Below are positions 3,916-53,714 of a DNA stretch of 64,000 nt, piece after piece. The translations under genes were made by a program, and so were the position numbers. A model generated the notes under the pieces. The model saw only the letters and a list, made by a program, of their open reading frames with translations. It did not search any database and was not told where the DNA came from. The stretch is from Somniosus microcephalus (taxonomy: Eukaryota), in the NCBI GenBank assembly GCA_052327205.1, contig CM126204.1, forward strand, positions 142,786,001-142,850,000. The letters are read 5' to 3'. Positions within the stretch are counted from its first letter, which is position 1. Each line of letters opens with the position of its first letter.

Positions 3916-4241
3916 GGTAGTTGTAGGCTTATCAAAGGATGATTCAAGCCTGGAAAGGTTGCAGGAAAGTAGGAAGGCAGAAGAGTAGTGGTGGGTTGTG
4001 GTTTGGAGTGGGGGCATACTTCCCAAGAGGAGAAAAATGAAATGTCGTCTAACTGGGCAACTGGAAGGGGAGAAGACGGAGAGAAAGGGTCTGAGAGGAG
4101 ACAAGAGAAAAAAGAGATAGAAGTAATGTGCTCAGTTCTAGAGCAACAATCAAAATGTGCATGTGAATAGACACGGAGGGAATTTAGGTGATTAGAATAG
4201 ACATGGCCTGGCCATAAACAGACCATAGGCTGAATTTTTAC

Positions 4242-8971: not shown

Positions 8972-9289
8972 TTTACATTGCCGTCGGGGCGGGTGCGGGG
9001 GGCCGTGGATTGTGTTGAAGCGACGTGTCTTGCAGTGGCTTTTTAACAAAGCCACTGCAATTGAATCAGACTTCCGGGTTCCCGACCAATTAACTGGAGT
9101 GGGTCTGATGAAGTCACGGATGACTCGACTTCAGCTCAGCTATTTAAAGGAGCAATGCACAGATGACAGTTGGAAGGTTGGTGGAGGTGCAAGAGACGTT
9201 GTAGGGGGAGAGAGTGCATTGTGTAAAGAGTAATTTGCTTGTTGGTATATAAATTTATACAGATTGATAATCAAAAATGAAGGCTCAGT

Positions 9290-32635: not shown

Positions 32636-34258
32636 ATTCCCAATGAGTTATGCAAGATTCAAACATTAAATAGTCTTAAGATGCATTTCACTATATAGCA
32701 CTTGATTAGTTTTATTAACACCTGACTGGATGTTATCAATGGTTAACATTCACTTCTTGTCCTGTGTTTACTAATAGACTGTGTCCACATGTATCTGTGC
32801 TAATCTGCACCGTGTAATATTTATATGCACATTAAAATCCATCAACGGTCCTTTATCTCATTTACATAATTGGTCCAACTCATTTTCAGTGCTGTCAACC
32901 TTTCTTCCATTAGTTATCTAATCAAATAGAATTAAAAGCAGATATTATAGTACAATTTTGACTCTTGAGGTCGATAGATTTTTGCTAGCCAAGGGTATTA
33001 AGGGATATGGAGCCAAAGCGGGTAAATGGAGTTAGGATACAGATCAGCCATGATTTCATTTATTGGCGGAACAGGTTTGAGGGGCTGAATGGCCTACTCC
33101 TGTTCCTATGTTCCTTCCTAATAGATCCTTTTGCTCTTCTACCCCACTTAGATTCTTATTTTCCAAGTAATGTGTGACCTCCTTATTTTTCTTACCAAAA
33201 TGTAATATCTCACATTTATCTGTGTTGAAACATTAATTTTCCAATTATATGACCATTCTGCAAGTTTATTAATGTCTTCTTGTAATTTGTGGCAGTCCTC
33301 CTCAGGATTGACTATTCCCCCCCCCCCCCCAAATTGGGTGTCATCCACAAATTTAGAAATTGTGTTTGATTCCGAAGTCTAAATCGTTACTATAAGTTGT
33401 GAACAACATTGGTCCCCGCACTGATCCTTGTGGACCCCACTTTCCACCTTCTGCCACTCTGTAGTGTATGTAACCTGTACCACCTTAAGAGGATACCTTA
33501 AGGTGATGGACTACTTTCTGATGGCTCCTGTACATTGTAGTACCGGTGGTGACCACACCGGTATATAAACCCTGTGGAGCAAAGTGTATTTCAGTTCAGC
33601 CCTGACCCTCAGTTACTAAAGACCTGTTTAAGTATTCTGTAGTCTGTGTCCAGTTATTCAGCATAACTACATTTGAAAGCACAGACTCAACAGTGGCGAC
33701 GAGTCTGATCGTACCTAGCGGCAGTTTTGCATCCAAGGAAGCTTCGTCCTCAGAACGGGCGTCGAAAAGGGGCATCCGCCCTCAACATCCTGCTGAGCAC
33801 TGCATCGCACGGGAGGCCATCGGGAACCCGGGTTGGTTTGCTGGCCACGAAGTCCACCATCAGCAACAGGCAGTGATCATCCCTTCTACGACAGCGGCGG
33901 GTAAGCCCGATCGAGCGGCACGGAGGGGAAGTCGGCCGAGTTGTCAGTGGGAGAAGGGGAGGGAAAACGAAAAGGGCGGAGAACACGACCGCAGCCGGTG
34001 TCAGGGGCCGGACTGCAATCGGGGCAGAGACGCGCAGCAGCCAGAAAAGCGTTGATGTCCACAAGGACCGCGGGAGCGGCGGGGAACAAGAGCAGCAGCG
34101 TCGGGGGAAATAAAGGACCGCCGGGAGGAGAGAACGGCAACAGCGCGGTAATCGCCATTTTTAGTCGGCGGAGGAAGAAGACAAGCGCGGGAAAAGCTGC
34201 CAAGCGCGGGAAGCCGCCATTTTGAAAAATAAAATAAAATAAAGGAAACTCAACAAGG

Positions 34259-35437
34259 ATGCCAAAAACGGGTAACATCACTGCTTTTGATAGCGATGTG
34301 GAAGATTGGGCCACTTATGTGGAACGCGTCGAAGTTTACTGTACAACGAATGAGGTACCGGAGGATAAGAAAGCACTAACCCTATTAAACTCGATGGGTG
34401 CGAAGACGTACGGGTTATTAAGGAACCTTGTAACACCAGATAAACCGGTAGGAAAGAGTTTCGCGGATATTGTTACTATCCTGCAAGAGCATTTAAACCC
34501 CACACCGCTGCTGATAGCGGAACGATTTAAATTCGACAAAAGAATTCAACTTAAAGAGGAAAGCAACGCTGAATTCTTAATCGAACTGCGCAAGTTATCA
34601 AAGTACTGTCAGTTCGGTACAGGACTAGCAGACGCACTGAGAGATAAGTTTGTGTGTGGGCTCCTAAGGGAAGGAACCCAGAAGCGACTGCTAGAGGAAA
34701 AGGATCTTACGCTGGACAAAGCTTTCAGCATTGCAGCATCGCACGAGGCAGCAGCACGAGGCGCTGCAGAGATACAGCAAAGGCCATTGGAATTCAGCAC
34801 CAATGAAATGGCATTGGGCGCAGTAAAGTGCTATCGTTGCGGAAGGACAACGCATGACCAGAACCAGTGCTGGTTCAAAGATAAAGAATGCAGGCAATGT
34901 GGCAAACTTGGTCACATAGCGAGAGTATGCCAGTCAGGAAAGAAGACCAGCAGCAAAAAGTCGCAGCAGGAGAAGTACAAAAAAAAAGTACACAAGGTGA
35001 CAGAGAACAGTTCGGATGAACAGAAGATGGATTCAGACTCCAGCAGTAAGGAACTGGGTTGTCTAAAAATACATAATGTGGGTAACACAGCAGACCACCA
35101 AACTATCTGGGTCATGCTTCGGATAGCAGGAGCCCAAGTGAAGATGGAATTGGACACTGGATCAGCATTGACGGTCATGAATAAGCAAGATTACAAAAGG
35201 TTATTCTCGCACATTCCCCTGAGGGATACGGAGATTGTATTGAAAACATACACGGGGCAAATAGTATACCCCATCGGAAAGATAAAAGTAAATGTGGTCT
35301 ACAATGGTAAAGAAAGTCAGGAAATGGACTTGTATGTGTTACCTGATGGAGGTCCGCCACTACTGGGACGGGAATGGATCCGGAGAATAAATGTGGACTG
35401 GCATTCCATTACAAGCACTGACTGTAGATTCCTGTAA
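34259..35437 (+). CDS. Gag-protease part of gag-pol
   Basis: Two zinc knuckles (CYRC..HDQNQC, CRQC..HIARVC), protease LDTGS, PLLGREW. Confidence 0.9.
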   Translation: MPKTGNITAFDSDVEDWATYVERVEVYCTTNEVPEDKKALTLLNSMGAKTYGLLRNLVTPDKPVGKSFADIVTILQEHLNPTPLLIAERFKFDKRIQLKEESNAEFLIELRKLSKYCQFGTGLADALRDKFVCGLLREGTQKRLLEEKDLTLDKAFSIAASHEAAARGAAEIQQRPLEFSTNEMALGAVKCYRCGRTTHDQNQCWFKDKECRQCGKLGHIARVCQSGKKTSSKKSQQEKYKKKVHKVTENSSDEQKMDSDSSSKELGCLKIHNVGNTADHQTIWVMLRIAGAQVKMELDTGSALTVMNKQDYKRLFSHIPLRDTEIVLKTYTGQIVYPIGKIKVNVVYNGKESQEMDLYVLPDGGPPLLGREWIRRINVDWHSITSTDCRFL

Positions 35438-38215
35438 AGAGGACGACGTCAAACCTAAACGACTGTCCAAAATATTGGACGATGCTAAGGAGGTGTTCCA
35501 ACAGGGACTGGGAACACTGAAAGGAATTACGGCAAACATCAAGGTTGAAGAACATGCAAACCCAAAATTTTTCAAAGCCAGACCGGTACCTTATGCGATA
35601 CGACCTGCTGTGGAAGCAGAGCTGGAAGGGCTAGAACGTTCAGGAGTACTGTCAAAGGTGGACTGGAGCGAATGGGCCACACCCATTGTTCCTGTCATGA
35701 AGCATTCGTTGAGCAACAAGCCGGGGGAACCTGGGAAGGTTCGCATCTGTGGCGATTTCAAGATCACTGTTAATCCGGTTCTTCACACGGTGCAATATCC
35801 GCTTCCGCGAATTGAAGATATCTTCGCTTCGCTGTCTGGCGGGAAACACTTCACCAAGATAGACCTGGTGCAGGCGTACCTACAGATGGAAGTTGATGAA
35901 GCGTCACGCCAGTATCTCATGATCAACACACATAAGGGCTTATATCGGTATAATAGACTGGTTTTTGGAGTGGCATCGGCTCCAGTGATTTGGCAAAGGG
36001 CCATGGAGCAGGTATTGCAGGGAATTCCAGGCACACAATGCTACCTGGACGACATTCTGATTACAGGAGATGATGATAAGGATCACCTCGCGAATTTGGA
36101 GCAGGTGCTCACCAGATTGAAAGAATATGGGCTCAGAGTTAATCGCCAGAAATGTAAGTTCTTTCAAAAGCGAATCTCGTACTGCGGCCACGTCATTGAC
36201 CAGGAGGGGCTCCATAAGTCACCTGACAAGATCGAAGCTGTTGTGAAAGCTTCCGCTCCGGAAAATGTATCCCAGTTGAGGTCGTTCCTTGGGTTGGTTA
36301 ACTATTACCACAAGTTTCTTCCAAATTTATCCACGGTGTTACACCCGCTGAACGCTCTTTTGCAAATGGGAATACCATGGAAGTGGAGCGATGATTGTAA
36401 GCAGGCTTTTCACAAAAGCAAGGCACTGATCACCTCTAAGGAAGTGTTGGCTCACTTTAACCCAACGCTGCCTATTCGCTTAGCTTGTGATGCTTCTCCA
36501 TATGGTATTAGGGCAGTGCTCTCACATAAGTTTCCAAATGGCTTGGAAAGGCCAGTCGCGTTCGCATCCAGATCATTGACCTCCACAGAGCGCAACTATG
36601 CTCAGATAGATAGGGAGGCTCTCAGCCTCGTGTGGGGAGTTAAGAAATTTAACCATTACCTGCAAGGCCAAAAGGTTACGCTGCTGACAGATCACCAGCC
36701 GTTGGTTTCCATTTTTAACCCTAAGAAGGGTGTTCCGGTTATGACGGCGCTGAGGCTTCAGAGATGGTCCCTTTTCCTAGGGGCACATCAATATGATATC
36801 GAATTCAAAGGTACAAAGCAACATGGTAATGCTGATGGGCTGTCGCGCCTGCCACTACCTACAGCGGAAGAGGCACCGGCAGTTGACCCTGTCGAGATAT
36901 TTCACTCGACCATCATCGAATGCTTACCAGTCACCAATGCGGGTATTGAGAGAGAGACCCGAAACGACCCGACACTGTCTCGGGTCTACGATTTGACAGT
37001 GAAGGGATGGCCAGCACATGGCGAACCACTGTTACCTGCATTCTCAGCCAGACGAGAACAGCTGTCCGTCTGTCAAGGAACATTGATGTATGGAACAAGG
37101 GTGATTATTCCTCCTAAATTAAGGGAGAGAGTTCTGAAGGAACTGCATGAAGGTCATCTGGGGGGAGTCAAGATGAAAAGCCTTGCTAGGGCTTATGTGT
37201 GGTGGCCAGGTATCGACAAACAAATAGAGGATCTGACTAAAAGCTGCTCAGGGTGCCAAAAAGTTCAAAACGCACCTCCAATTGCACCGCTGCATCCGTG
37301 GGAATGGCCTTCAACCCCATGGCAACGTGTGCATATCGACTTTGCAGGTCCATTCATGGATTCCATGTTTTTGATAGCGGTAGATGCACATTCTAAATGG
37401 CCAGAAGTGATTAAGATGTCGACCACTACCTCTGAAAAGACGATCGCAGTTCTAAGAACCATATTTGCAAGGAATGGGTTGCCGGAACAAATATGTTCAG
37501 ACAACGGACCACAGTTCGTGTCAGAAGAATTCCAGAAATTCATGAAAAAGAATGGGGTGAAACACTATACATCTGCCCCATATCATCCGGCTACCAATGG
37601 GTTGGCCGAGAGATTTGTACAAACGTTCAAAAAGGCGATAAAGGCCATGAGCGAAGACCATGTTCCACTACAACACAAGGTGGACAATTTCCTGATGGCA
37701 TATCGAAACGTCACGCATGCAGTGACAAATCAAAGCCCTGCCATAATGTTCTATAACAGGAGGTTGCGGTCCCGGTTGGATTTGTTAAAACCCAATGTGC
37801 GTAGGGAAGTCGAAAACAAGCAATTCCAGCACGTAAATAACAAGGCCACTCGGAGTTTCGAAATAGGACAACCAGTGTTGGCCACGGACTATAGGAATGA
37901 TAAATGGCAATCCGGAACAATTCGTGCCCGACAAGGACCCTTGATGTACACGGTAGACGTTGGTGAGAACGTAATACAACGTCATGCTGACCAACTTGTG
38001 GAATCGAGAACAAGGGTCGACCCCATGTCTACGGCAGAGACACCAGTTGAAGAAGTTATTGAGCCTGTAGCATCTACCTCAGACTCGAACGTACATGATG
38101 ATGTTCAATCCATAGGAGATCAAATGGATGAGTCACCCCAGCAACGAGAACCAGAGACCCCGAAAGGCGTTATCCGGCCTGGATCAGGAGGCCTCCTCAG
38201 AGACTGAATCTTTGA
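35391..38215 (+). CDS. Pol (RT, RNaseH, integrase), offset from gag-protease by one base near 35410; second frameshift near 38160
   Basis: YLDD, CDASPYG, HEGH..CSGC, DAHSKW, SDNGPQF, GLAERFV; family-type C-terminus RRYPAWIRRPPQRLNL* lies in another frame. Confidence 0.9.
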
Positions 38216-38651
38216 ACAGTTTTGTGTGAAAGTTGTATATATGTTATCCATGTTATGTTTAAATTGGGGTGTACACTGTTAAGCTAAAAGGGGAGGAATT
38301 GTAGTGTATGTAACCTGTACCACCTTAAGAGGATACCTTAAGGTGATGGACTACTTTCTGATGGCTCCTGTACATTGTAGTACCGGTGGTGACCACACCG
38401 GTATATAAACCCTGTGGAGCAAAGTGTATTTCAGTTCAGCCCTGACCCTCAGTTACTAAAGACCTGTTTAAGTATTCTGTAGTCTGTGTCCAGTTATTCA
38501 GCATAACTACATTTGAAAGCACAGACTCAACACTACCCTTCACCCCTACTCTCTGTTTCTATCTTGAAGCCAGCTAGCTATCCATTCTGCTACTTGTCTC
38601 CTGACTTTGCATTCTCTGACCTTATTCATTAGTCTATTATAGGGTACCTTA

Positions 38652-40545
38652 CTAAAAAAAATAAAGAGAGAGAAGATGAATTATGAGAGTAAACTGGCAA
38701 GAAGCATGAAAACAGATAGTAAGAGCTTCTACAGGTATATAAAAAGGAAGAGGGTAGCTAAAGTAAATGTTGGTCCCATAGAGGATGAATTAATGATGGG
38801 TAATTAATAATGTGGAACAGGGAAATGGCAGAGTCTCTGAACAAATATTTTGTATCTGTCTTCACGGTAGAAGACACTAACAACATCCCAATAATGGATA
38901 ATCAAGGGGCCACAGGGGAGGGGGAACTAAAGACAATCACTATCACTAAGGAAATAGTACTTGGTAAAATAATGGGACTAAAAGATGACAAGTCCCGTGG
39001 ACCAGATGGCCTGCATCCCAGGGTCTTAAAAGAAGCGGCTGCAGAGATAGTGGATGCATTGGTTGCAATATACCAAAATTCCCTAGACTCTGGAGAGGTC
39101 CCAGCGGATTGGAAAACCGCAAATGTAACAACCCTATTTAAGAAAGGAGGGAGACAGAAAGCATGAAACTAGACCAGTTAGCCTAACATCTGTCATTGGG
39201 AAAATGCTGGAGTCCTTCATTAAGGAAGCAGTAGCAGGGCATTTGGAAAATCATAATGCAGTCAAGCAGAGTCAGCATGGTTTTATGAAAGGGAAATCAT
39301 GTTTAACAAACTTGCTGGAGTTCTTTGAGAAGGTAACGAGCAGGGTGGACAAAGGTGAACCAGTGGATGTGGTGTATTTGGATTTCCAGAAGGCATTCGA
39401 TAAGGTGCCACATAAAAGGTTACTGCTCACGGAATTGGGGGTAATATATTAGCATGGATAGAGAATTGGCTAACTAACAGAAAGCAGAGAGTCGGGATAA
39501 ATGGGTCATTTTCCAGTAGGCAAACGGTAACTAGTGGGGTGCCACAAGGATCGGCGCTGGGGCCTCAACTATTTACAATCTACATTAATGGCTTGGATGA
39601 AGAGACCGAGTGTAATGTAGCCAAGTTTGCAGATGATACAAAGATGGGTGGGAAAGCAAGTTGTGCAGAGGAATCAAAGAACCTGCAAAGGGATATAGAC
39701 AGGCTAAGTGAGTGGGCAAACATTTGGCAGATGGAGTGTAATGTGGCAAAGTGCGAGGTTATACACTTTGGCAGGAAAAATAAAAAAGCAAATTATTATT
39801 TAAATGGAGAGAGATTACAAAATGCTACAGTTCAGAGGGACCTGGGGGTCCTTGTGCATGAAACACAAAATGTTAGCATGCAGGTACAGCAAGTAATCAA
39901 AAAGGCAAATGGAATGTTGGCCTTTATTTCAAAGGGGTTGGAGTATAAAAGCAGGGAAGTTCTGCTACAACTGTACAGGGCATTGGTGAGACCACACCTT
40001 GAGTACTGCATACAGTTTTGGTCTCCTTATTTAAGGAAGGATACACTTGCATTGGCGGCAGTTCAGAGACGATTCACTAGGTTAATTCCAGAGATGAGGG
40101 GGTTGACTTATGAGGAAAGGCTGGGCCTATACTCATTGGAATTTAGAAGAATGAGAGGTGATCTTATTGAAACATATAAGATTCTGAGAGGGCACAACAA
40201 GGTAGATGCAGAGAGGATGTTTCCCCTCGTGGGGAAATCTAGAACTCGGAGGCACAGTTTTAGAATAAAGGGTCGCCCTTTTAGAACTGAGATGAGGAGG
40301 AATTTCTTCTCTCAGAGGGTCGTAAATCTGTGGAACTCTCTGCCCCAGAGAGCTGTGGAGGCGGGGTCATTAAATACATTTAAGGTGGAGATAAACAAAT
40401 TTTTGCAAGATAAGGGAGTGAAGGGTTATGGGGAGGGGGCGGGGATGTGGCTTTGAGCCCAAGATCAGCCATGATCTTATTGAATGGCGGAGCAGGCTCG
40501 AGGGGCCAAGTGGTCTATTCCTGCTCCTATTTCTTATGTTCGTAT
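38652..40545 (+). mobile_element. 5'-truncated CR1 LINE inserted in an antisense CR1
   Basis: ORFs 38810-39166, 39204-39452, 39539-40456 with QHGF, PQGS, FADD; CR1 3' tail ending cttatgttcgtatgttc. Confidence 0.9.
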
Positions 40546-40931: not shown

Positions 40932-41524
40932 CAGGTAGATTATCCTTTATCCGAAAACCTCGGGACCAGCCGAGTTTCGGTTTTCGGAGAATTTCGGATT
41001 TCGGAAGGTGGGTCGGCGGGGGTCCGCGGGGGGGTCGGCGGGGATCGGGGCCGGCGGGGGTCCGGCGGTTGTCGGGGCCGGCAGGGTCCGCGGGGGGGTC
41101 GGCGGTTGTCGGGGCCGGCGGGGTTCGCGGGGTCCGCGGGGGGGTCGGGGCCGGCGGGGTCGGCGGGGGGGGTCAGCAGTTGTCGGGGCTGGCGGGGGGG
41201 GTCGGCGGCGGGGGTCGGGGCCGGCGGGGTCCGCGGGGGGGTCGGGGTCGGGGCCGGCGGGGGGTCGTGCGCACGACTTACGGTGACGCTCAGCGTAAGT
41301 CGGTGGGGGTCGGGGTCAGCGGGGGTCGGGGCCGGCGGGGGGGTCGGCGGGGGTCCGTGCGCACGACTTACCCTTTATCCAAACTTCCGAAACCGGAACC
41401 CTCTAAAAACCGAAGGTTTTTTCATTCAGTGTAAGTCGTACGCACAACTTACGCTGAACGAAAAAACCTTCGGTTTTTAGAGGGTTTCGGTTTTCGGAAG
41501 TCCGGATAAAGGGTAGTCTACCTG
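40932..41524. mobile_element. Tc1/mariner-type MITE with G-rich minisatellite and internal palindrome
   Basis: TA|caggtagattatcctttatccg...cggataaagggtagtctacctg|TA, inserted in a SINE tail. Confidence 0.85.
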
Positions 41525-43049: not shown

Positions 43050-43760
43050 GAAGAGAGAGAGAGAGCGACTGGGGGGAAGAGGGAGAGCGAGCGACTGGGG
43101 GGAAGAGAGAGAGCGAGCGATTGGGGGGAAGAGAGAGAGCGACTGGGGGGAAGAGGGGAGGAAGGGACAGAGGGCAGGAAGGGGGAGAAGGGGGGGCGGA
43201 AGGGGACAAGGGGGGCAGAAGGGGGAGAAAAGGGGGGTGGAAGGGGGGGAGAGAGAGAGGGGGGGAGAGAGAGAGGGGGAGAGGCCGGGTTGCCGGGATA
43301 ACCCTCCTCCCCCTCCCGCGGCCCGCCCCTCCCGAGCCCCACCCCCGCCCCTCGCGAGCCCCGCCCCCCCAGCCCTGCCCCCCCTCCAGCTCCCCGAGCC
43401 CCGCCCCCCCTCCAGCTCCCCGAGCCCTGCCCCCCCTCCAGCTCCCCGAGCCCCGTCCCCCCCCTCCCGAGGCCGGGCCTGAGGCGGCTTGAGACGGCTG
43501 ATTGCGGCTGGCCAGGCCCGGTTGCCGGGGTAACCCTCCTCCCCTCTCCGCTCCGCTGTCCAAGCCCCGGCCGCCCCGCCCCGCACTCCCGAGAGCCCCG
43601 CTCTCCGAGCCCCGGCCGCCCCGCCCCGCACTCCCGAGAGCCCCGCTCTCCGAGCCCCGGCCGCCCCGCCCCACACTCCCGAGAGCCCCGCTCTCCGAGC
43701 CCCGCCCCCCCCGCCCAAGCCAGCTTCAAGACCACCGAGCGGGGAAGAGAGAGAGACACA
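43050..43760. repeat. Purine-rich and GC-rich minisatellites inside the Helitron
   Basis: Units gagcgactgggggaaga, cccctccagctccccgagc and a 42-bp unit x3. Confidence 0.85.
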
Positions 43761-44253
43761 AGAAATAGGAGCAGGAGCAGGCCAACCGGCCCCTCGAGCC
43801 TCCTCCACCATTCAATAAGATCATGGCTGATCCGATCCTAACCCCAAATCTTCTATCACTCTCCATCCCACCCGAACCCATGTGATCTCCCGGGAGAGGC
43901 GAAAAACCAGATAAAAAACCCAATGGCCAATTTGGGAGAAAAAATCTGGGAAATTCCTCTCCGACCCATCTAGGCGATCGAAACTCTTCCAGGAGATCAC
44001 TCTGTCCCTATATTTTCTACAGTACTTACCTTCTGTAAAGGCGATCTCCACCCCAGCCAGGAACAGGAATAAAACCATCTCCTGAAATCTAACACAGAAT
44101 AAGAACACAAGAAGTAGGAGCCGAACCAGGCTACACGGCCCCTGGGCCCGCTCCACTACCCACAGGGCCATGACCATTCCTAACCTAGACTCATGTCCAA
44201 TTTCCTGCCCGCTCCCTGTAACCCTTAATTCCCTTTACTTCTAGGAAACTATC

Positions 44254-47200
44254 TGTTAAGTCTGTGGGTTGTATTATAAATAATCACAGACTCCACTGTT
44301 AACAGAATAAAACACGTCTTTACTATTCAGCGGCTCGGGCGATTCTGCCCTAGTTAACGTATCACAACCCTTATATACTGGTGTGGTCACTATCGGTATT
44401 ACAGTATACATGAGCCAATAGATAGTGCCACCCTAAAGTAGTGCTCTTAAAGGCGAACGGTTACATTCTATAGTTCCCTTAAAGGTAAACGGTTACATAC
44501 ACAACACTCCTCCCTTCCTAGCTTATTACTTACAGAATCCCGTTAAACATACAATCTTCAACTTTATATAAACAGTTTGCAGATATACTCTCGATGGAGT
44601 CAACGTCATATAACAATTTACAAATATACTCTCAATGGAGTCAACGTCATATAACAGTTTACAAACATACTCTCAGTGGAATCAGTTTACAGGTTCAGTC
44701 TCTGTGGGAACAGTTCATAAATTCAGTCTCTGGTATTAATTCGTTCCAGACAGCATCCTCCATAGCTTTTTTTTTTTTTTTTTAAACAGCTTGTACTTTC
44801 GTCCTGTTGAACCAGCAGTGCGGACTTATACAACCCACTGGCTGTCTTGATAATGTCCCTGGATTTTTTTTACAAATTTAGCACCTTTCGTAGTGTTCGG
44901 ACTGAGGTAGTAGAAGTAATAATATTTTAAACAGTTATTATTTTCTGCTTCTTCTTTTTCTTTTCTGCCTTTTTGAAACTCTCCGAGCTCTTTTCCCGGC
45001 TGCCATCTGTAGCGCCACCAACTCTCTATGTTCCTTAGACCTTAAGTGCTTCCTCAGGATTTCAGCACTTTGGGAGTTCCCATCACAATTTGGGCAGACC
45101 ACATCCTCATAACATTCGGTGTCACTCAACAGGTCAAAACCCTTCTTCAAGCAATCATATTCATCCTGCTCTTCCTCGGATGTCTGCCCTTCCTTCCCTC
45201 CTGGCCTCATTTGTGCGTTCAATCCTTTCCCTTCCTTCAGGGATTTCGTTATCAGGCTATTTAATCCTTCTACTGAAGTAGCTGTTTCCCCATTCTCCTG
45301 TTCCCCTGGACGTAATTCAGCGTACTCCTCCATTTCATCCATCATTTTCTCCAATGCTTTCATCTTCTCTTCCTCTTGTACTTTGGCTTCCAGTGCTTGG
45401 AGAAGTTGCGCCTCGATGCTCTCTAGCTCATGTTCAGGGCCCATTCCCAGTTGAAACTGTTCTTCAAGTCGGTCAACCTCGGTAATTGCCGCCTCATATT
45501 TGTCTTGGGCTTCCTTCCATATTTTTATGAGTTCTGCCATGTCTTTCACCTCTACATCCTCATCTATGTATGGAACTTCTACCGATGAGTCTGTCTTGGC
45601 CCTGAGCTCCTCAAGAATTTCCTGCAGCCTTTGGACTTCTTGCTCATGTTCAACCTTTAGTTGCTCATATACTTCCAACGAAACTAGCTTTTCGGAGGTT
45701 GCTGAGTTAACCCCCTCCAGAATTGTAGTCTGGGCCTGTTCATACTGTTTTTTCAACTTCTCGCACTCTGCTTGTAAGGAGTCGTAGAGAAGAACTGGAA
45801 TAAAATCCTGGCTTCCTGAAGATTCCTCTTCATTTGTTTCTTTCGCAATTTCCTGTTGGAGTTCAGCCAAGGCTGCTATGCTATCTGCCTCTCGAAGTCT
45901 CACTGCCATCAACTCTTCTTTATTCTTGCAGTCCATCTCAGCCATTTCCCGTTTACTTTCATTTAACTGAGTGAGTAGTCCCTTATTTTGGGCTGAGAGA
46001 TATTGCACCTTCTCATGTAGACCCTTGCACTCCTTCTCTGCTTGACATAGCTGATTACCGCTGATTTGGTTCTGCGTTTCAAGTTCCAACATCCTTTGCT
46101 TAGCTTCTTTCAGTTTCGCCCCTATAAGCTCCTCTTGCAACATGGCCACATTATTCTCATCAGGTAAAGAAGCGTTTCTCTTTTCCATGTCCAAGATTTG
46201 TTTCTGCATCTCCTTAAGAGCACCCTGTGATTCAACTTCTCTTAACTTTGCCTGCACTAGCTCCGTCTCTAATTGCAGAACAAAATCCTCAGTGCAGCGT
46301 GATTTGCCCTTCTGCTGTATCTCTAGATCATGCAAATATTCTAACCCCTGAACATCATCAGGGAGATGTGATCGGTAATTGGTCACGATGGCTCTATGGT
46401 CGCTCTCTGCTTGAGCCAGTAGGTTCTGTTGTCTTTCCAGACTCTCCCATTCGGTGTCATAGAACTTTTTCATTGTTTTCATCTCTTGTACGAGGCGGTA
46501 ACTTAATTGTTCTAATTGTTGTTGTACTTTGAAATAGCGTTGAGTTCGAGCCCGGTGTTCCTCCGTAATGCATATGTCTGTAGCTTGAACAGACTCAGAA
46601 TTCTCTGTCTTTATGCACGCCATCGATTTCCCAACCTTAGTCCGTGAGTTAATGTTAACCTTGTTTTTCATACATAAGCTGGACTTATCGTCTTCCAGCT
46701 CAGAGTCTGAGCTGCTTGTCTGCACCGAGTCCTCACTCGTCATTGCTTGTCGGTAGTGCCATTCCATGTCTATTTTCTTGATCCACTCCCGTCCTAGAAG
46801 TGGTGGTCCTCCCTCAGGTAGTACGTACAAATTCATTCTTGGGTGTACTTTACCCCTATCTCTCACCTTGACTCTTATCTTCCCCATGGGGTATACGCGA
46901 TGCCCCGTGTATGTCTGTAATACGAACTTGGTATTTCTTAAGGGTATGTGAGAGAATAGTCGGTGGTAGTCCTTTTGGTTGATGACTGATACAGCTGATC
47001 CCGTGTCCAGCTCCATTCGTACTTGGACTCCAGCTATTTTTAGTGTGACCCAGATCGTCTGTAGATCAGTTACTTTACCCACATTGTGGATTCTCAGACT
47101 ATCCAACTCCTGGCTGTTTGGGTCTGAGTCTGAATTTTGTTCGTCTGAACTCTTTTCAGCCACCTGATGCACCTTGTTGTACTTTTCTTGTGGTGGTGGC

Positions 47201-48999
47201 TTCCTTTGTTTGTTGGTCTTCTTTCTGGACCTGCATACCTTCGCGATGTGACCCAGTTTGCCACATTTCCTGCACTCTTGATTCTTAAACCAGCACTGAT
47301 TCTGGTCGTGCGTTGTCTTTCCACAACGGTAGAATTTGGAAATGCTTGCAGTCATTTGGTCCACCCCGAGTGCCGCCGCCTTTAGCTGCATTTCCGCCGT
47401 CCCTTTCGCTGCGGCTTCGTGCGATGAAGCTATGAGGACAGCCCTGTCCAGTGTGAGGTCGTTTTCTTCCAGAAGTCGCTTCTGCGTTCCTTCTTTGGCC
47501 AAGCCGCATACGAACTTGTCCCGCAGCGCCTCTGTCAAATTCCCTCCAAACTGGCAGTATTTCGCTAGCTTACGCAGTTCGACTAAGTATTCCGCATTGC
47601 TTTCATCTTGCCTCTGGGTTCTGGCGTAAAATTTAAATCGTTCAGCCAGTATCAACGGTGTGGGGTTCAAGTGATCCTTCAGCACTGCTACGCTCTCTTC
47701 GAAGGTCTGGTCCACTGGTTTAACTGGTGCTATTAGATGTTTCAAGAGCCCGTATGTTTTTGCTCCCATCGAATTTAACAAAGTTATTGCCTTGGCGTAT
47801 ATGGCTACGCAATATATTCCTATGCGTTCCCCATACGTGGCCCTGTCTTCTATTTCAGCATTAAAATCATTAATATTTCCTCGCTTAGGCATCTTCTTCT
47901 CTTTCCGAGAACAGCACAAGTATTTCTTTACTTATTATTAATTTTCTTCTCTTCTTGAGAACACCACCAGTATTGCTTTACTTATTTCTTGTTTCTGAAA
48001 ATTCTAATTAATTTTCTTCTCTCTTCTTGAGAACACCACAAGTATTGCTTTACTTATTTCTTGTTTCTGAAAATTCTAATTAATTTTCTTCTCTCTTCTT
48101 GAGAACACCACAAGTATTGCTGTACTTATACTTATTTTTCCTCTCTTCTTGAGAACACACCAGCCTTTCTGAAAAATCTTATTACTTTCCTGAAATTCTT
48201 AATAATTTCCAAGATGGCGGTTTCCCGCTTCTTCCTTCTTCTTCAGCGGTTTCCCCGCGAAAAATGGCGGCTTTCCCGCGCTTCTCGCTCTCCCCGCCCA
48301 CTTCGATGGCGGTTTTCCCGCGCTTCTCGGCGCTCTCCGCCCACTTCAATGGCGGTTATCACCCGTTCCCCGACGCTGACTTTCAGGCCGAGTGCGGGCC
48401 TTATCAGCGGATGCGATCGATGGCCCGGCTGCCCTCGCACTTGAAAGCGGCCCCCGGCCTCTGGCTCACCCGCTCGCACGGCTCTTGCTCGCTCCCTCCC
48501 GGGCTCTGGCTTACCCGCTCGCGCGTTTCACCGCGGCTCTTATCAGGGATTGCGATCGCCCTGTCTTTGCAGCCAACGCTGCGGCTTACCCACGAGGTTA
48601 TGGAGGCTTCAGGGTCCTAATGCCTGTCGCTTCCAGCCTGTCGGTTCCAGACTGGTGAGGATTGAAACCTCTCTTCAACGTCCTGTCTTCGGACGAAGCC
48701 GCCGTGGAACAACTGCCGCAGGGTTCGAATCCTGACTCGTCGCCAATGTTAAGTCTGTGGGTTGTATTATAAATAATCACAGACTCCACTGTTAACAGAA
48801 TAAAACACGTCTTTACTATTCAGCGGCTCGGGCGATTCTGCCCTAGTTAACGTATCACAACCCTTATATACTGGTGTGGTCACTATCGGTATTACAGTAT
48901 ACATGAGCCAATAGATAGTGCCACCCTAAAGTAGTGCTCTTAAAGGCGAACGGTTACATTCTATAGTTCCCTTAAAGGTAAACGGTTACATACACAACA
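44254..48999 (-). mobile_element. Non-autonomous Gypsy LTR retrotransposon carrying host-gene-like cargo in place of pol
   Basis: 253-bp LTRs 44254-44506 and 48747-48999, no differences seen; TSD CTATC; PBS TGGCGACGAG; PPT AGGAAGGGAGGAG; no RT, RNaseH or integrase motifs. Confidence 0.95.
44938..47892 (-). CDS. 984-aa Gag-protease fused to coiled-coil and zinc-finger cargo
   Basis: First ~385 aa align with ORF 34259-35437 (LDTGS intact); remainder resembles recalled STK10, ANKRD24, EVI5 and DNAJC21 segments; no stop codons. Confidence 0.88.
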   Translation of the reverse strand: MPKRGNINDFNAEIEDRATYGERIGIYCVAIYAKAITLLNSMGAKTYGLLKHLIAPVKPVDQTFEESVAVLKDHLNPTPLILAERFKFYARTQRQDESNAEYLVELRKLAKYCQFGGNLTEALRDKFVCGLAKEGTQKRLLEENDLTLDRAVLIASSHEAAAKGTAEMQLKAAALGVDQMTASISKFYRCGKTTHDQNQCWFKNQECRKCGKLGHIAKVCRSRKKTNKQRKPPPQEKYNKVHQVAEKSSDEQNSDSDPNSQELDSLRIHNVGKVTDLQTIWVTLKIAGVQVRMELDTGSAVSVINQKDYHRLFSHIPLRNTKFVLQTYTGHRVYPMGKIRVKVRDRGKVHPRMNLYVLPEGGPPLLGREWIKKIDMEWHYRQAMTSEDSVQTSSSDSELEDDKSSLCMKNKVNINSRTKVGKSMACIKTENSESVQATDICITEEHRARTQRYFKVQQQLEQLSYRLVQEMKTMKKFYDTEWESLERQQNLLAQAESDHRAIVTNYRSHLPDDVQGLEYLHDLEIQQKGKSRCTEDFVLQLETELVQAKLREVESQGALKEMQKQILDMEKRNASLPDENNVAMLQEELIGAKLKEAKQRMLELETQNQISGNQLCQAEKECKGLHEKVQYLSAQNKGLLTQLNESKREMAEMDCKNKEELMAVRLREADSIAALAELQQEIAKETNEEESSGSQDFIPVLLYDSLQAECEKLKKQYEQAQTTILEGVNSATSEKLVSLEVYEQLKVEHEQEVQRLQEILEELRAKTDSSVEVPYIDEDVEVKDMAELIKIWKEAQDKYEAAITEVDRLEEQFQLGMGPEHELESIEAQLLQALEAKVQEEEKMKALEKMMDEMEEYAELRPGEQENGETATSVEGLNSLITKSLKEGKGLNAQMRPGGKEGQTSEEEQDEYDCLKKGFDLLSDTECYEDVVCPNCDGNSQSAEILRKHLRSKEHRELVALQMAAGKRARRVSKRQKRKRRSRK

Positions 49000-51760
49000 C
49001 TATCTATTTCTGTTTTAAATTTATTTAATGATGTAGCTTCCACAGCTTTCTGGGGCAGCAAATTCCACAAACCTACCACCCTCTGAGTGAAGAAGTTTCT
49101 CCTCATCTCAGTTTTGTAAGAGCAGCCCCTTATTTTAAGATTATGCCCCCTAGTTCTAGTTTCACCCATCATTGGGAATATCCTCACCGCATCCACCCGA
49201 TCAAGCCCCTTCACAATCTTATATGTTTCAATAAGATCGCCTCTCATTCTTCTGAACTCCAATGAGTAGAGTCCCAATCTACTCAACCTCTCCTCATATG
49301 ACCACCCCCTCATCCCCGGGAATAACCGAGTGAACCTTCTTTGTACTGACTCGAGAGCAAGTATGTCTTTTCTTAAGTATGGACACCAAAACTGTATGTA
49401 GTATTCCAGGTGCGGTCTCACCAATACCTTGTATAACTGCAGCAATACCTCCCTGTTTTTATATTCTATCCCCCTCGCAATAAAAGCCAACATTCCATTG
49501 GCCTTCTTGATCACTTGCTGCACCTGCATACTAACTTTTTGAGTTTCGTGCACCAGGACCCCCAGATCCCTTTGTACAACAGTACTTTCCAGTTTCTTGC
49601 CATTAAGATAATAACTTGCTCTATGATTTTTCCTGCCAAAGTGCCTAACCTCACACTTTCCAGTATTGTATTCCATCTGCCAAATCTCTGCCCACTTACT
49701 TAGCCTGTCTATGTCACTTTGCAGGTTTTTTATGTCCTCCTCACTCACTACTTTCCCTCCCATCTTTGTATCATCTGCAAACTTTGATATGTTACACTCG
49801 GTCCCCTCCTCCAAATCGTTAATATAGATTGTAAAGAGTTGGGGACCCAGCTCTGATCCCTGCGGAACACCACTAGTTACTGATTGCCAGTCTGAGAAGG
49901 AACCATTTATCCCAACTCTCTGCTTTCTGTTAGAGAGCCAATTCTCCACCCACGCCAGAATATTACCCCCAATCCCGTGATTTTTTATCTTGAGCAATAA
50001 TCTTTTGTGTGGCACCTTGTCAAATGCCTTTTGGAAGTCTAAATACACTACGTCCACTGGTTCTCCTTTATCCACCCTGTATGTTACTTCCTCAAAGAAC
50101 TGAAGCAAATTTGTCAAACATGACTTCCCCTTCATAAAACCATGCTGACTTTGTCCTATTAAATTATGTTTATCCAAATGTCCCGTTACTGTCTCCTTAG
50201 TAATGGACTCTAACATTTTACCAACCACAGATGTTAGGCTAACAGGTCTATAGTTTCCAGCCTTCTGCCTACTACCCTTTTTAAATAAGGGTGTTACATT
50301 AGCAGTTTTCCAATCTGCTGGGACCTTTGCTGAGTCCAGGGAGTTTTGGAAAATTATTACCAATGCATCCACAATCCCTACCGCCACTTCCCTCAAGACC
50401 CTAGGATATAAGCCATCAGGTCCAAGGGATTTATCCGGCTTAAGTCCCATTATTTTACCAAGTACCACTTCCTTAGTGATTTTAATCGTATTTAGCTCCT
50501 CTCCCCCTAGAGCCCCCTGTTTGTCCAGTGTTGGGATATTCTTAGTGTCCTCTACTGTAAAGACTGATACAAAATATTTGTTCAGCGTTTTTGCCATCTC
50601 CATGTTTCCCACCATTAATTTCCCAGTCTCATCCTCTAAGGGACCAACATTTACTTTAGCCACCCTTTTTCTTTTTATATAACTATAGAAACTTTTGCTA
50701 TCCGTTTTTATATTTTTTGCTAATTTACTTTCATAATCTATCTTCCCTTTCTTAATCAATCTTTCAGTTATTTTTTGCTGTCTTTTAAAGACTTCCCAAT
50801 CTTCTATCCTCCCACTAGATTTGGCTACCTTATATGCCCTTGTTTTTAGTCGGATACTATCCTTAATTACTTTACTTAGCCACGGATGCCTATCTTTTCT
50901 TTTACACCCTTTTTTCCTCGGTGGAATATATATTTTTTGGAAGTTGTAAAATAACTCCTTAAATGTACACCACTGATCATGTACCGTCTTACCCTTTAAT
51001 CTATTTTCCCAGTCCACTCTAATCAATTCCGCTCTCATACCTTCATAGTCTCCTTTGTTCAAGCTCAGCACGCTTGTTTGAGATCCAACCTTCTCACCCT
51101 CTACTTGAATATGGAATTCAACCATGTTATGGTCACTCATTCCAAGGGGATCCTTTACTAGGACATTTTTAATTAATCCTGTCTCATTACACAGGACCAA
51201 ATCTAAGATTGCTTGCCCCCTGGTCGGTTCAGTTACATACTGCTCAAGAAACCCATCCCTAATACACTCAATGAACTCATCCTCAAGGCTGCTCTGCCCA
51301 ATTTGATTTGTCCAGTTAATATGATAGTTAAAATCCCCCATAATTATAGCTGTTCCCTTATTACAAGCCTCAACTATTTCCTGATTAATACACCGTCCAA
51401 CAGAGTTGCAACTGTTCGGAGGCCTATAGACTACGCCCACTAGTGTTTTTTCCCCTTATTATTCCTTATCTCTACCCAAACTGTTTCACTATCCTGCTCC
51501 TTTGACCCAATATCATTTCTCTGTATTATTATAGTGATTCCTTCCTTTATTAACATAGCCACCCCACCTCCCCTCCCTTCCTGATTGTTAAATAACCTGG
51601 TATGTTTAATTCCCAGTCATGGTCACCCTGCAGCCATGTTTCTGTAATGGCCACAAGATCATACCCATATGTAGTTATTTGTGCTGTTAACTGATTCATT
51701 TTGTTACGAATGCTACGTGCATTCAGATAAAGAACTTTCAAATATGTTTTGTGACACTTA
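49000..51760 (-). pseudogene. CR1 ORF2 (APE endonuclease + RT), frameshifted near 51560-51590 and truncated by the LTR insertion
   Basis: LYLNARSIRNK, ITETWL, GDFN, SDHN, QHGF, PQGS, FADD. Confidence 0.9.
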
Positions 51761-51920: not shown

Positions 51921-52877
51921 TTAGTTTAAAGCCCTCTCTACAGCCCTAGTTATATGATTTGCCAGGACTCTAGTCCCAGCACTGGCCAAGTGGAGTCCGT
52001 CCCAACGGAACAGCTCCCTCCTGTCCCAGTACTGGTGCCAGTGTCCCAAGAAGCAAAACCCATTTCTCCCACACCAGTCTTTGAGCCACGCATTTAACTC
52101 TTTTATTTTATTTATCCTAGCCAAATTCGCTCGTGGCTCAGGTAATAACCCAGAGATTATTACCCTTGAGGTTCTGTTTTTTAATTTGACCCCTAGCTGC
52201 TCATACTCCTTTAACAGAACCTTCTTCCTTGTCCTATCTACGTCGTTTGTACCAACATGGACCATGACAACTGGATCCTCCCCCTCCCACTCCAAGTTTC
52301 TTTCCAGCCCAGAAGAGATGTCCTTAACCCTGGCACCGGGCAGGCAACACAGCCTTCGGGACTCCCGCTCTTGACTGCAGAGAACCCTATCTATCCCCCG
52401 AATGATACTATCCCCTACCACTACAACATTTCTTTTTACTCCCTCCAATTGAATGGCCCCCCGTACCATGGTGCTGTGGCCAGGTTGCTCATCCTCCCTG
52501 CAGTCCCCACTCCTGCCCTCACAGGGAGTAAGAACCTCAATCCTGCTTGACAAGAGCAAGGGCTGCAGCTCCTTCAACGCTACATTCTGGATCCCTGTAC
52601 CTTCCTCACTCGTAGTCACACCGTCCTGTCCCTGACCACGGACTACATCTGCAGTAATTAATTTCATAGGTGTGACCACCTCCTGAAACATAGAGTCCAG
52701 GAACTTCTCCCCCTCCCTGATGTGTCGCAGTGTCTGAAGCTCGGTCTCAAGCTCTTTGACATGGAGCTTGAGTTCCTCTAGCAGCAAACACTTATCACAA
52801 ATGTAATCACCGTGAGCCTCAATGGGGTCCACCAGCTCCCACATTTCGCAACAGTGACACATCACCTGTTCACCCAT
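51921..52877 (-). CDS. CR1 ORF1p (zinc finger, coiled coil, SGNH esterase-like)
   Basis: CHCCEMW..CDKC, VVVGDSIIR, CLPGA, HVGTND, WDGLHL. Confidence 0.9.
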   Translation of the reverse strand: MGEQVMCHCCEMWELVDPIEAHGDYICDKCLLLEELKLHVKELETELQTLRHIREGEKFLDSMFQEVVTPMKLITADVVRGQGQDGVTTSEEGTGIQNVALKELQPLLLSSRIEVLTPCEGRSGDCREDEQPGHSTMVRGAIQLEGVKRNVVVVGDSIIRGIDRVLCSQERESRRLCCLPGARVKDISSGLERNLEWEGEDPVVMVHVGTNDVDRTRKKVLLKEYEQLGVKLKNRTSRVIISGLLPEPRANLARINKIKELNAWLKDWCGRNGFCFLGHWHQYWDRRELFRWDGLHLASAGTRVLANHITRAVERALN

Positions 52878-53714
52878 ATCTGTGTAATTAATTAAATTTC
52901 TTATTATTAGTTATGAAGACCCTCTGCCCCGATATAGATGATAATATTACACCACTATTTAATAGGACTTACCAACTTAAAGGTATAGAAGAGAAGGAAG
53001 AGAGCCTACCAACCAGCTGATCACCAACCTCCCTCGTGGAAGCTGTCTGGGGGACCTGTCTGGTTGCATTGTCTCACTGCTCCACGTCCGCAGTGTTGGA
53101 TTAGCCTGAGAAAGGGAAGCAAAACAGAGCAACAAGCACCCCCTCACCTCCCACTTGCCCGAAAGCCCGCCCCTTTTTATACCTGGATTCTACTTCCGGT
53201 TTCAACTCCCCAACAACTTAATTTACTCTAAAAAATTAAACTTACTTCAAATAATTCACTTTTTTACTCACTAAAATTCAGTAAATGCACTTAAAAGACT
53301 TTTTCTGCCACTTACCAAAGTCTGCTTAAACTTAATGCGACGCCGTATCTGAGCTGCTGGCTTCCCGCGCTCTGCGTCGCCTGCTGCGCGCGCACCCTGT
53401 GCATGTCCCGTGACCCTCGCGGCCAATGCCGTTGCCCCAGGGTAACGTGACGGGGGGGACTGGGGGGGGAGGAGCTTACAGAAGCCGTGGGACAATTACC
53501 TAGCTCGGGCGTGGCTGGGCAGGAGAGGCCCAGGCTTTGAGGCCTAGGTTTTGAGGCCTTACAAAAACAGGGAAAGGTAGGAAAAAGAATCATCAGGTTA
53601 GAGAAAATATTTACAAATGAATGAATTTTTTTTTTAAACAATTTAATAAAAGCAATTTTTTTTTGCTGGAAATGTAGATTTGAAAAGAAACACGCAGAAA
53701 GCGGGAAAAAGAAT

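What the first reader, a model, noticed from the sequence alone, without database searches (positions are those of the whole stretch)
44254..48999. Recently inserted LTR retrotransposon that replaced pol with an in-frame mosaic of host-gene fragments
Seen: identical 253-bp LTRs, exact CTATC TSD, PBS and PPT, and one open 984-aa frame. It aligns with the neighbouring Gypsy Gag-protease up to WHYRQAMT (~46740), where RT should begin, then runs ~600 aa with no RT/RNaseH/IN motif. Length (4746 bp) is close to the two pol-bearing elements here (4730 and 5073 bp). From recalled sequences, the cargo resembles pieces of four unrelated cellular genes (STK10, ANKRD24, EVI5, DNAJC21). Inference: serial mRNA capture by template switching, analogous to oncogene transduction by retroviruses. 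All junctions are in frame and the pieces look diverged from their sources while the copy is young, suggesting an older non-autonomous family under selection to express a chimeric Gag/coiled-coil protein that the intact protease might release.
Basis: partly seen in the sequence, partly recalled or inferred. Interest (0 to 1): 0.95.

Follow-up and report, generated by a model that had tools for sequence, protein, structure and literature searches.

The report
Shark retrotransposon that captured circular RNAs
A jumping gene with thousands of copies in a shark-like genome replaced its replication enzymes with pieces of five host RNAs, three of them copied from circular RNAs, and kept them all in one open reading frame, which shows how circular RNAs can be written back into a genome.

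Summary
44254-48999 is a young non-autonomous Gypsy element: identical 253-bp LTRs, 5-bp TSD, one 984-aa frame of Gag, protease and about 600 aa of host-derived cargo.

Four donor loci were found in this genome. Where the cargo crosses a host exon border I located, the intron is gone.

New here: the STK10, ANKRD24 and EVI5 pieces carry exact back-splice junctions (a downstream donor joined to an upstream acceptor). The STK10 and EVI5 pieces begin and end at the same host position, i.e. one full turn of a circular RNA.

The intermediates survive as families. STK10 circle alone replacing pol (1,106 copies), then OPTN, a zinc finger, the ANKRD24 circle (4,018 copies), the EVI5 circle, and finally in-frame deletions.

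Selection keeps the frame open, but cargo amino acids change near-neutrally. A selected chimeric protein function is therefore not shown.

Multi-gene LTR capture and circRNA-derived pseudogenes are each known. I found no report of serial, one-turn, in-frame circRNA capture by an amplifying family.

The parts
48747..48999 (-). 5' LTR, 253 bp, TG...CA
   Evidence: identical to the 3' LTR
48729..48746 (-). primer-binding site (tRNA-Ser-like; the assignment is recalled, not tested)
   Evidence: directly after the 5' LTR; the first 10 bases are shared with both neighbouring Gypsy elements
47893..48728 (-). 5' leader with 72-bp tandem repeats at 47948-48213; variable between copies
47060..47892 (-). 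gag (aa 1 to about 278) with two zinc knuckles
   Evidence: Pfam zf-CCHC 206-221; Gag-protease 65% identical to the pol-bearing neighbour
46740..47059 (-). aspartyl protease with D-T-G motif at aa 296-298
   Evidence: Pfam Asp_protease_2 E 2.4e-05; position
46424..46737 (-). STK10, opening arc of the captured circle: two collinear pieces (STK10 aa about 400-478 and 616-660) joined by an in-frame deletion
46348..46423 (-). ANKRD24: last bases of one exon plus the whole next exon (host C13:62873348-62873413)
   Evidence: 92.5% over 67 nt, starting at the acceptor and ending at the donor; end of the preceding exon seen in family D
46331..46347 (-). ANKRD24 back-splice into the start of the upstream large exon (host C13:62861849)
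   Evidence: junction at 4,018 places, control 0
45845..46330 (-). EVI5: one full turn of a five-exon circle (678 nt, all phase 0; 486 nt kept after a 192-nt in-frame deletion); back-splice at 46315|46314; starts at host C3:348013488 and ends at C3:348013487
   Evidence: EVI5-less joint 45844-46331 in RNA and contigs
45330..45844 (-). ANKRD24 large exon resumed at the next host base (C13:62861866), with in-frame deletions
45142..45327 (-). optineurin remnant (longer in families B-E and G)
44938..45135 (-). jaz-type C2H2 zinc-finger piece, very probably DNAJC21, with basic tail and stop codon
   Evidence: family G version scores zf-C2H2_jaz E 1.9e-08 and is 94.8% identical over 115 nt to a single host exon at C1:4792918, starting at its acceptor
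44785..44966 (-). decayed closing arc of the STK10 circle, now mostly 3' UTR (coding in families E, F, G)
   Evidence: 65% to family F with many gaps; family D 78%
44507..44519 (-). polypurine tract
44254..44506 (-). 3' LTR
44249..44253 (.). target-site duplication (partner at 49000-49004); the target lies inside a dispersed repeat

Best explanation
A non-autonomous Gypsy lineage repeatedly copied co-packaged host RNAs by reverse-transcriptase template switching, and at least three of those RNAs were exonic circular RNAs. SHOWN: (1) In founder family F the whole RT-RNase H-integrase region is replaced by one turn of an STK10 circle; entry (just inside RT) and exit (in the integrase C-terminal tail) use the same short host stretch. 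(2) Optineurin was then added (E), a zinc-finger exon pair (G), an arc of an ANKRD24 circle spanning its back-splice (D), and one exact turn of an EVI5 circle placed inside the ANKRD24 exon with no host base lost (C, B); in-frame deletions gave the window type (A). The nesting gives the order. (3) Stops and frameshifts are purged upstream of the stop codon but not downstream. INFERRED: the switch happens inside the particle, with RT and integrase supplied by the abundant pol-type relatives. RT leaves the element RNA at a few shared bases, goes once round the circle and returns. Circles of phase-0 coding exons contain no UTR and no stop, so a full turn preserves the frame, and a lineage filtered for an open frame becomes enriched for them. 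The open frame most likely serves the element's own RNA: ribosomes run nearly to the 3' LTR, avoiding decay of a long untranslated tail and/or favouring packaging by its own Gag. It is less likely to serve a specific activity of the cargo protein. My odds by step: spliced-RNA capture 0.99; circular templates 0.9; RT switching rather than a DNA-level event 0.75; selection on frame 0.9; RNA-level reason for that selection 0.55.
For: Back-splices match host splice sites exactly. EVI5: donor C3:348013503 joined to acceptor C3:347968011 (1 match in the genome). STK10: donor C8:167191933 joined to acceptor C8:167198433 on the minus strand (1 match each). ANKRD24: donor C13:62873413 joined to acceptor C13:62861849. 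One-turn closure: EVI5 starts one base after it ends; STK10 starts at aa 385 and ends at aa 388. The EVI5 donor, EVI5 acceptor and STK10-only family were predicted before they were searched for (notes). Intermediates exist: F (L071), E (L069), G (L072), D (L068), C (L037), B (L035). The EVI5-less form makes up 45 of the first 100 listed junction matches (hand count) and appears in 2 RNA runs and 2 contig sets. Frame selection: ORF indels are multiples of 3 in 5 of 5 (A-B) and 1 of 1 (A-short A), with 2 plus one compensated pair (B-C); 3' UTR indels are 0 of 3 (A-B), 0 of 6 (A-C, L037), 0 of 5 (L060), 2 of 6 (L045) and 3 of 12 (A-D). P(no stop after 125 neutral substitutions) was 0.001-0.004. 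The same STK10 arc stays intact while coding and decays once behind the stop. Cargo dN/dS is 0.68-0.77 (A vs C, B) against a neutral range of 0.45-1.08. 13 of 30 A copies lack 105 capsid codons in frame. The pol-type version of the protease-RT stretch occurs at 11,733 places. Run X7 is strongly one-stranded over the ORF.
Against: The parent circular RNAs were not shown to exist as RNA. No back-splice is visible in the OPTN or zinc-finger pieces. The ANKRD24 piece is an arc, not a full turn. At the EVI5 entry the 4 shared bases are used one base out of register, so simple homology pairing does not fully explain it. B vs C cargo dN/dS is 0.52 and host ANKRD24 vs C is 0.35 (CI 0.18-0.74), which allows some constraint, although the host branch contributes. 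Gag-protease is strongly constrained (0.12-0.14), but its dS (0.37-0.45) far exceeds the cargo's (0.09-0.16), so much of that may have accrued in pol-bearing lineages and been recombined in. Families B-G are each represented by one or a few copies; D is an old copy with private frameshifts. Copies were picked by likeness to open-frame queries. Run X8 shows only weak strand bias.
Confidence: 0.78

Rival explanations
1. Same captures, but the cargo protein itself is selected: the coiled coils replace RT as the dimerising or spacer module behind the protease, or give Gag a scaffold, localisation or decoy function.
For: Most pieces are charged helical regions; the low-confidence single-sequence model is almost all long helix beyond the STK10 spacer. 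Every coding piece is in the host's sense strand, and those aligned to host or orthologous proteins are in the host's own frame. B vs C EVI5 has 1 replacement and 2 silent changes. In HIV-1 a leucine zipper fused behind the protease enhances Gag cleavage (PMC3291649, abstract).
Against: Cargo dN/dS lies within the simulated neutral range. Pieces are freely swapped, cut and deleted between families. STK10's kinase, EVI5's TBC and ANKRD24's ankyrin domains were not captured. 13 of 30 young copies lack 105 capsid codons. In the HIV work the fusion reduced particle output.
Confidence: 0.25
2. The scrambled exon order came from linear RNA: RT jumping backwards at the shared AG of exon ends, or exon repetition by trans-splicing or tandem duplication in the host genes.
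For: Exon ends and intron ends share AG or CAG (5 shared bases at the ANKRD24 junction). Dong et al. note that non-colinear junctions can arise by other routes (PMC4897178).
Against: Three of three scrambled junctions fall exactly on a donor and an acceptor. Two pieces also close exactly on themselves, which a linear template does not predict. The tested acceptors and the STK10 donor are single in the assembly. A LINE-associated STK10 retrocopy here is collinear with stop and UTR.
Confidence: 0.08
3. Circular RNAs were first reverse-transcribed into circular DNA or genomic circRNA pseudogenes and then recombined into element DNA at microhomologies.
For: A single reciprocal crossover between a circle and a linear molecule explains the clean EVI5 insertion with no loss on either side.
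Against: The STK10 event replaced about 2.7 kb of pol using two different element positions and one host position, which fits two RT switches. The nested serial captures suggest one repeated route.
Confidence: 0.15
4. The chimeric ORF is a domesticated gene kept for the host's benefit.
For: The family is transcribed.
Against: Thousands of dispersed copies exist. Only 12 of 30 EVI5-ranked copies (L031-L060, mostly C type) are open across the fetched stretch, so inserted copies decay. The window copy is a fresh insertion with identical LTRs.
Confidence: 0.03

Closest known systems
circRNA-derived pseudogenes, e.g. 33 mouse circRFWD2 copies with LTR-rich flanks (Dong et al. 2016, PMC4897178; main text read, supplement not read)
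   Same: Non-colinear back-splice junction in genomic copies; LTR association; many copies from one circle.
   Different: There the copies are pseudogenes and the authors call the mechanism mysterious. Here entry and exit points inside a Gypsy genome are visible, two captures are one full turn, three different circles are nested, all are fused in frame to Gag-protease, and there are thousands of copies with intermediates.
LTR-mediated retroposition in metazoans, including the mouse 'Super' retrocopy of four genes (Tan et al. 2016, PMC5131818; passages and sections 7 and 12 read, supplements not read)
   Same: Internal ORF replaced by partial, intronless host RNA; short shared bases at switch points; several parent genes; sense strand; further rounds of retroposition.
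   Different: The word 'circular' does not occur in its main text. For older copies it reports 14 of 21 with loss-of-function changes, whereas here frame is kept through at least five captures.
Maize Bs1 (seen only through PMC5131818 and PMC13317346 passages; the primary paper was not held)
   Same: LTR element whose interior is a translated chimera of three host genes.
   Different: 1-5 copies, one piece out of frame, no circular templates reported, plant; here more than 5,000 copies and a preserved stepwise series.
Acutely transforming retroviruses with gag-onc fusions (recalled)
   Same: Helper-dependent genome, pol replaced by spliced host sequence in frame with gag.
   Different: No env; STK10's kinase, EVI5's TBC and ANKRD24's ankyrin domains are not included; no sign of selection on the cargo's activity; germline, not somatic.

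Membership tests
Ty3/Gypsy LTR retrotransposon, non-autonomous | Direct LTRs (TG...CA), short TSD, PBS and PPT | tested here: met
Ty3/Gypsy LTR retrotransposon, non-autonomous | Gag with CCHC knuckle and aspartyl protease related to an element with PR-RT-RH-IN order | tested here: met
   Pfam; 65% to the neighbour at 33460-38532, which has RT, RNase H and integrase in that order
Ty3/Gypsy LTR retrotransposon, non-autonomous | Own RT, RNase H and integrase absent, yet amplified | tested here: met
Ty3/Gypsy LTR retrotransposon, non-autonomous | Mobilised in trans by an intact pol-bearing partner | tested here: inconclusive
   11,733 places continue into RT; intactness and partnership not examined
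LTR-mediated retrocopy (Tan 2016) | Intronless partial host RNA replacing the internal ORF | tested here: met
   EVI5, ANKRD24, STK10 and zinc-finger host exon borders crossed without introns; OPTN host exons not located
LTR-mediated retrocopy (Tan 2016) | Short shared sequence at switch points | tested here: met
   RT/STK10 and STK10/integrase-tail junctions share the same few bases; 4 shared bases at EVI5 entry, offset by one; no significance test run
LTR-mediated retrocopy (Tan 2016) | Co-transcribed in sense as one unit | tested here: inconclusive
   continuous one-strand depth in X7, weak bias in X8; short reads at family level only
circRNA-derived sequence (Dong 2016) | Exon-exon junction in reversed order at true splice sites | tested here: met
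   3 of 3 scrambled junctions
circRNA-derived sequence (Dong 2016) | Captured sequence confined to the circle's exons, no poly(A) or UTR | tested here: met
   STK10 aa 291-704 only, EVI5 five exons only, ANKRD24 three exons only, in the copies examined
circRNA-derived sequence (Dong 2016) | Parent circular RNA detected in RNA | not tested
circRNA-derived sequence (Dong 2016) | Non-coding pseudogene | tested here: not met
   part of an open, frame-selected ORF
Acutely transforming retrovirus-type transduction | Captured domain selected for its activity | tested here: not met
   cargo dN/dS within neutral range; kinase, TBC and ankyrin domains not captured
Acutely transforming retrovirus-type transduction | Infectious particles through a helper env | not testable with these tools
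   no env-like frame in the element

The most novel reading that the evidence does not exclude
Germline circular RNAs are preferred, repeatable substrates for a Gypsy reverse transcriptase: RT steps onto the circle, copies exactly one turn and steps off. Because phase-symmetric coding circles are stop-free cassettes, the element works as an in-frame exon-shuffling engine. It has built a new 600-750-aa protein region from five genes, spread it to thousands of loci and left a fossil record of ancient shark circRNAs. In the boldest form the captured coiled coils functionally replace Pol behind the protease.
Probability: 0.45. Interest if true: 0.95.

Novelty: new variant of a known kind. Interest (0 to 1): 0.87.

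Why it matters
How circular RNAs get written back into genomes was left open by the paper that described circRNA-derived pseudogenes. Here entry and exit points, one-turn geometry and the order of events can be read directly, three times in one lineage, which gives a mechanism that can be tested. It shows a route to in-frame domain shuffling in a vertebrate germline at thousands of copies. It names specific circRNAs that must have been present in ancestral germ cells. It separates selection for an open frame from selection for protein sequence in a retroelement. Thousands of transcribed near-copies of STK10, EVI5, ANKRD24 and OPTN exons could also feed small-RNA silencing of these genes, and they will confound gene annotation and circRNA calling in this genome.

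Tried and rejected
PDB sequence search of the cargo: 0 hits at E 10; for the zinc finger, only generic fingers. Single-sequence AlphaFold of protease plus cargo: pLDDT 47.6, pTM 0.23, too weak for a fold search, so none was run. No tRNA or tmRNA genes in the window. No RNA holder was listed in the run index; the two RNA runs were added by species label. Naming the zinc-finger donor: one recalled motif gave 0 matches. Zuotin-domain hits lie on C17 (2 matches). No J-domain hit lies near C1:4.79 Mb among 53 matches from 81 candidates. Atlas hits were generic jaz fingers, two of them in zuotin-domain clusters at scores under 0.9. The name therefore stays probable. Whole-protein searches for host STK10 and EVI5 either failed or returned only element copies. 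The hit at C3:354.66 Mb was hoped to be a longer circle but is an ordinary collinear retrocopy. Length matching to pol-bearing elements is rejected as a requirement. Assembly chimera is rejected. Earlier scan findings: none. Not done: ANKRD24 circle length, base-level STK10/ANKRD24 and ANKRD24/OPTN junctions, OPTN host exons, full-length sequences of B, C, F and G, and a tree of copies.


Full report
1. Observation. The element is as described. The LTRs at 44254-44506 and 48747-48999 are identical over 253 bp, with a primer-binding site and a purine tract in place. CTATC is duplicated at 44249-44253 and 49000-49004. One 984-aa frame runs 47892-44938 on the minus strand. Pfam finds a zinc knuckle, an aspartyl protease and a weak C2H2 finger, and no RT, RNase H or integrase. 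DNA likeness to the pol-bearing neighbour stops at 46739. The genome is 6.45 Gb, and the best protein hits are all sharks and rays, so I call it shark-like.

2. It is a large family. The cargo query returned 4128 first-look candidates; the 40 scored are all full-length. The 30 fetched differ from the window by 0-5 bases in 1800 (one is the window itself). 28 of these 30 have one open frame from gag to the end, 13 of them with an in-frame loss of 105 gag codons. These 30 are the nearest copies, not a random sample. Among 30 copies ranked by EVI5 likeness, mostly C type, only 12 are open across the fetched stretch, so inserted copies decay.

3. Donors. EVI5, ANKRD24 (labelled ankycorbin or ANKRD24-like by the sources) and STK10 are confirmed by database hits. 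A fourth block is optineurin (E 6e-23). The terminal finger's only named hit is a copepod DNAJC21 (E 1.3e-4). Its least-changed version (family G) is 94.8% identical over 115 nt to one host exon at C1:4792918, and the match begins exactly at that exon's acceptor. The name DNAJC21 for that gene rests on that weak hit, on Atlas leads under 0.9 and on my recall. No J domain was found nearby. Host loci in this genome: EVI5 C3:347.97-348.01 Mb, ANKRD24 C13:62.86-62.88 Mb, STK10 C8:167.18-167.20 Mb. OPTN exons were not located. At the host exon borders I located, the cargo runs across without the intron, so the templates were spliced RNA. Identity to the host exons is 94-99% in families B and C and 86-98% per exon in the window copy.

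4. Three templates were circular. EVI5: the element joins the donor at C3:348013503 to the acceptor at C3:347968011, 45 kb upstream. I predicted both sites from the element before searching. The donor pattern has an exact match inside the gene (one of 340 matches genome-wide, most from an unrelated repeat), and the acceptor pattern has 1 match in the genome. The piece begins at host 348013488 and ends at 348013487: exactly one turn of a five-exon, 678-nt, all-phase-0 circle (exon sizes), of which 486 nt remain. It sits between two adjacent bases of the ANKRD24 exon with nothing lost. ANKRD24: the exon ending at C13:62873413 is joined to the start of the large exon at 62861849. STK10: family F (L071) reads protease, the first residues of RT, STK10 385-478, 616-704, then 291-388, then the integrase C-terminal tail. 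The 704-to-291 joint is a host donor joined to an upstream host acceptor, each with 1 match; an isoform inserts an exon at the same donor. Entry and exit use the same short host stretch, shared with RT on one side and the integrase tail on the other. A LINE-associated STK10 retrocopy elsewhere is collinear with stop and UTR.

5. Order of events. F has the STK10 circle alone: ORF about 728 aa, junction at 1,106 places, control 0. E adds OPTN over the back-splice point. G adds the zinc finger inside the closing arc, still in one frame; a motif of it matches 498 places. D adds the ANKRD24 arc and shifts the closing STK10 arc out of frame. C and B add the EVI5 circle, and A adds in-frame deletions. 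The ANKRD24 junction occurs at 4,018 places, control 0. Of the first 100 listed, 15 are A, 40 are B/C and 45 lack EVI5 (hand count). The order is inferred from nesting in one or a few copies per family. A's gag-protease is much further from B's (dS 0.45) than its cargo is (0.09), which points to recombination between backbones. The pol-type continuation of the protease-RT stretch occurs at 11,733 places, so candidate helpers are plentiful; none was checked for intactness.

6. Selection. Gag-protease dN/dS is 0.12-0.14 (A vs B, C). Cargo is 0.77 (0.53-1.18) and 0.68 (0.49-0.99), and B vs C is 0.52. A neutral simulation with the observed transition bias gives 0.68 (0.45-1.08), so amino-acid change is not clearly constrained. 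The same simulation leaves the frame stop-free in only 0.1-0.4% of runs. Indels inside the ORF are multiples of three between A, short A and B (6 of 6) and net in frame between B and C. The old D copy has two private 1-nt shifts. In the 3' UTR 0 of 3, 0 of 6, 0 of 5, 2 of 6 and 3 of 12 are multiples of three. The STK10 closing arc is an internal control: intact where it is coding (E, F, G), 78% in D and 65% with many gaps in the window, where it lies behind the stop. At the EVI5 entry, switching in the register of the four shared bases would have produced a stop; the surviving junction is one base off and in frame (read). The caveat is ascertainment, since open-frame queries favour open-frame hits.

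7. Expression. On 44100-49150, RNA run X7 laid 8139 reads (2622 at 99% or more). Over 45452-46972 the first-mate-plus depth is 93-360 against 1-18, which is the element's sense strand in the usual stranded protocol. X8 laid 7582 reads with weak bias. Both show the EVI5-less joint. This is family-level evidence from runs chosen by species label. It does not show that this copy is transcribed, nor translation.

8. Mechanism. Most likely RT, working on co-packaged RNAs in the particle, leaves the element RNA at a few shared bases, copies once round a circle and returns. Stopping after one turn could reflect RT meeting its own starting hybrid or a single nick (inference). Circles of phase-0 coding exons carry no UTR or stop, so they pass a filter for open frames more often than mRNA fragments do. 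The filter is most simply the element RNA's need to be translated to near its end (stability, cis-packaging). A structural role for the coiled coils behind the protease remains possible (PMC3291649, abstract). Rivals and odds are in their sections.

9. What is known. Tan et al. 2016 (PMC5131818; passages, sections 7 and 12) describe LTR-mediated capture in animals with microsimilarity and up to four parent genes; 'circular' does not occur in the main text. Dong et al. 2016 (PMC4897178; part 1 of 2, the main text to the acknowledgments) describe circRNA-derived pseudogenes with LTR-rich flanks and leave the mechanism open. Bs1 is known to me only through passages. I did not read the supplements of the first two, and they could hold non-colinear LTR retrocopies. 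Nine searches (listings only, apart from the papers named) showed no report of serial or one-turn circRNA capture by an LTR family, or of this family; subscription journals are mostly not covered.

10. Verdict. It is a new variant of LTR-mediated retroposition in which circular RNAs were captured three times, in frame, with the intermediates preserved in thousands of copies. Interest 0.87.

Noticed in passing
L068:671-5562 (G000:C13, about 62867070-62871960): An EVI5-less copy of the family (LTRs differ at 4 of 255 bases) lies antisense in an intron of ANKRD24 itself, between two exons of the captured circle.
   Followed up: partly
e.g. G000:C9:103276613, C8:34722176, C3:66243408: Further families with longer intronless optineurin pieces (matches from aa 24 to 444) in open frames of up to 1413 aa; they may hold more donors or an optineurin back-splice.
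   Followed up: partly
L070:371-1045 (G000:C3:354.66 Mb): Collinear processed copy of the STK10 3' end (97% aa, with stop and UTR) directly beside sequence that looks like a CR1-type LINE (LINE label recalled).
   Followed up: partly
L004-L006, L009, L010, L012, L013, L016, L020, L024-L026, L028: 13 of the 30 nearest copies share an in-frame 315-nt deletion in the capsid region of gag yet are dispersed and young.
   Followed up: partly
L025/L026 (C5:250.59 Mb); L031/L032 (C1:56.14 Mb): Head-to-tail tandem copies; L025/L026 share one LTR.
   Followed up: no
window 47325-47340: The window copy has a substitution in the first Gag zinc knuckle that the other aligned copies lack.
   Followed up: no
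L073 (G000:C1:4792560-4793010); C1:2.67 Mb: The host zinc-finger exon sits in very GC-rich, repeat-flanked DNA with no J-domain hit nearby; J-domain exons lie 2.1 Mb away on the downstream side. Possibly a local assembly or duplication issue.
   Followed up: partly
window 4242-8972 (-) and 33460-38532 (+): Two pol-bearing Gypsy elements, both with broken frames. The second has identical 233-bp LTRs and is related to the cargo family (65% Gag-protease to A, 75% to E); the first is distant (30%).
   Followed up: partly
window 48972-51455 and 51921-52910 (-); 39416-40456 (+); 27964-31603 (-): LINE ORF2 and ORF1-like frames and fragments (CR1/L2 type by recall).
   Followed up: no
window 10241-10756 (-): 171-aa frame resembling a Harbinger-type transposase nuclease (recalled, not tested).
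   Followed up: no
window 41012-41260 and 43300-43850: GC-rich tandem repeats that create long spurious open frames.
   Followed up: no
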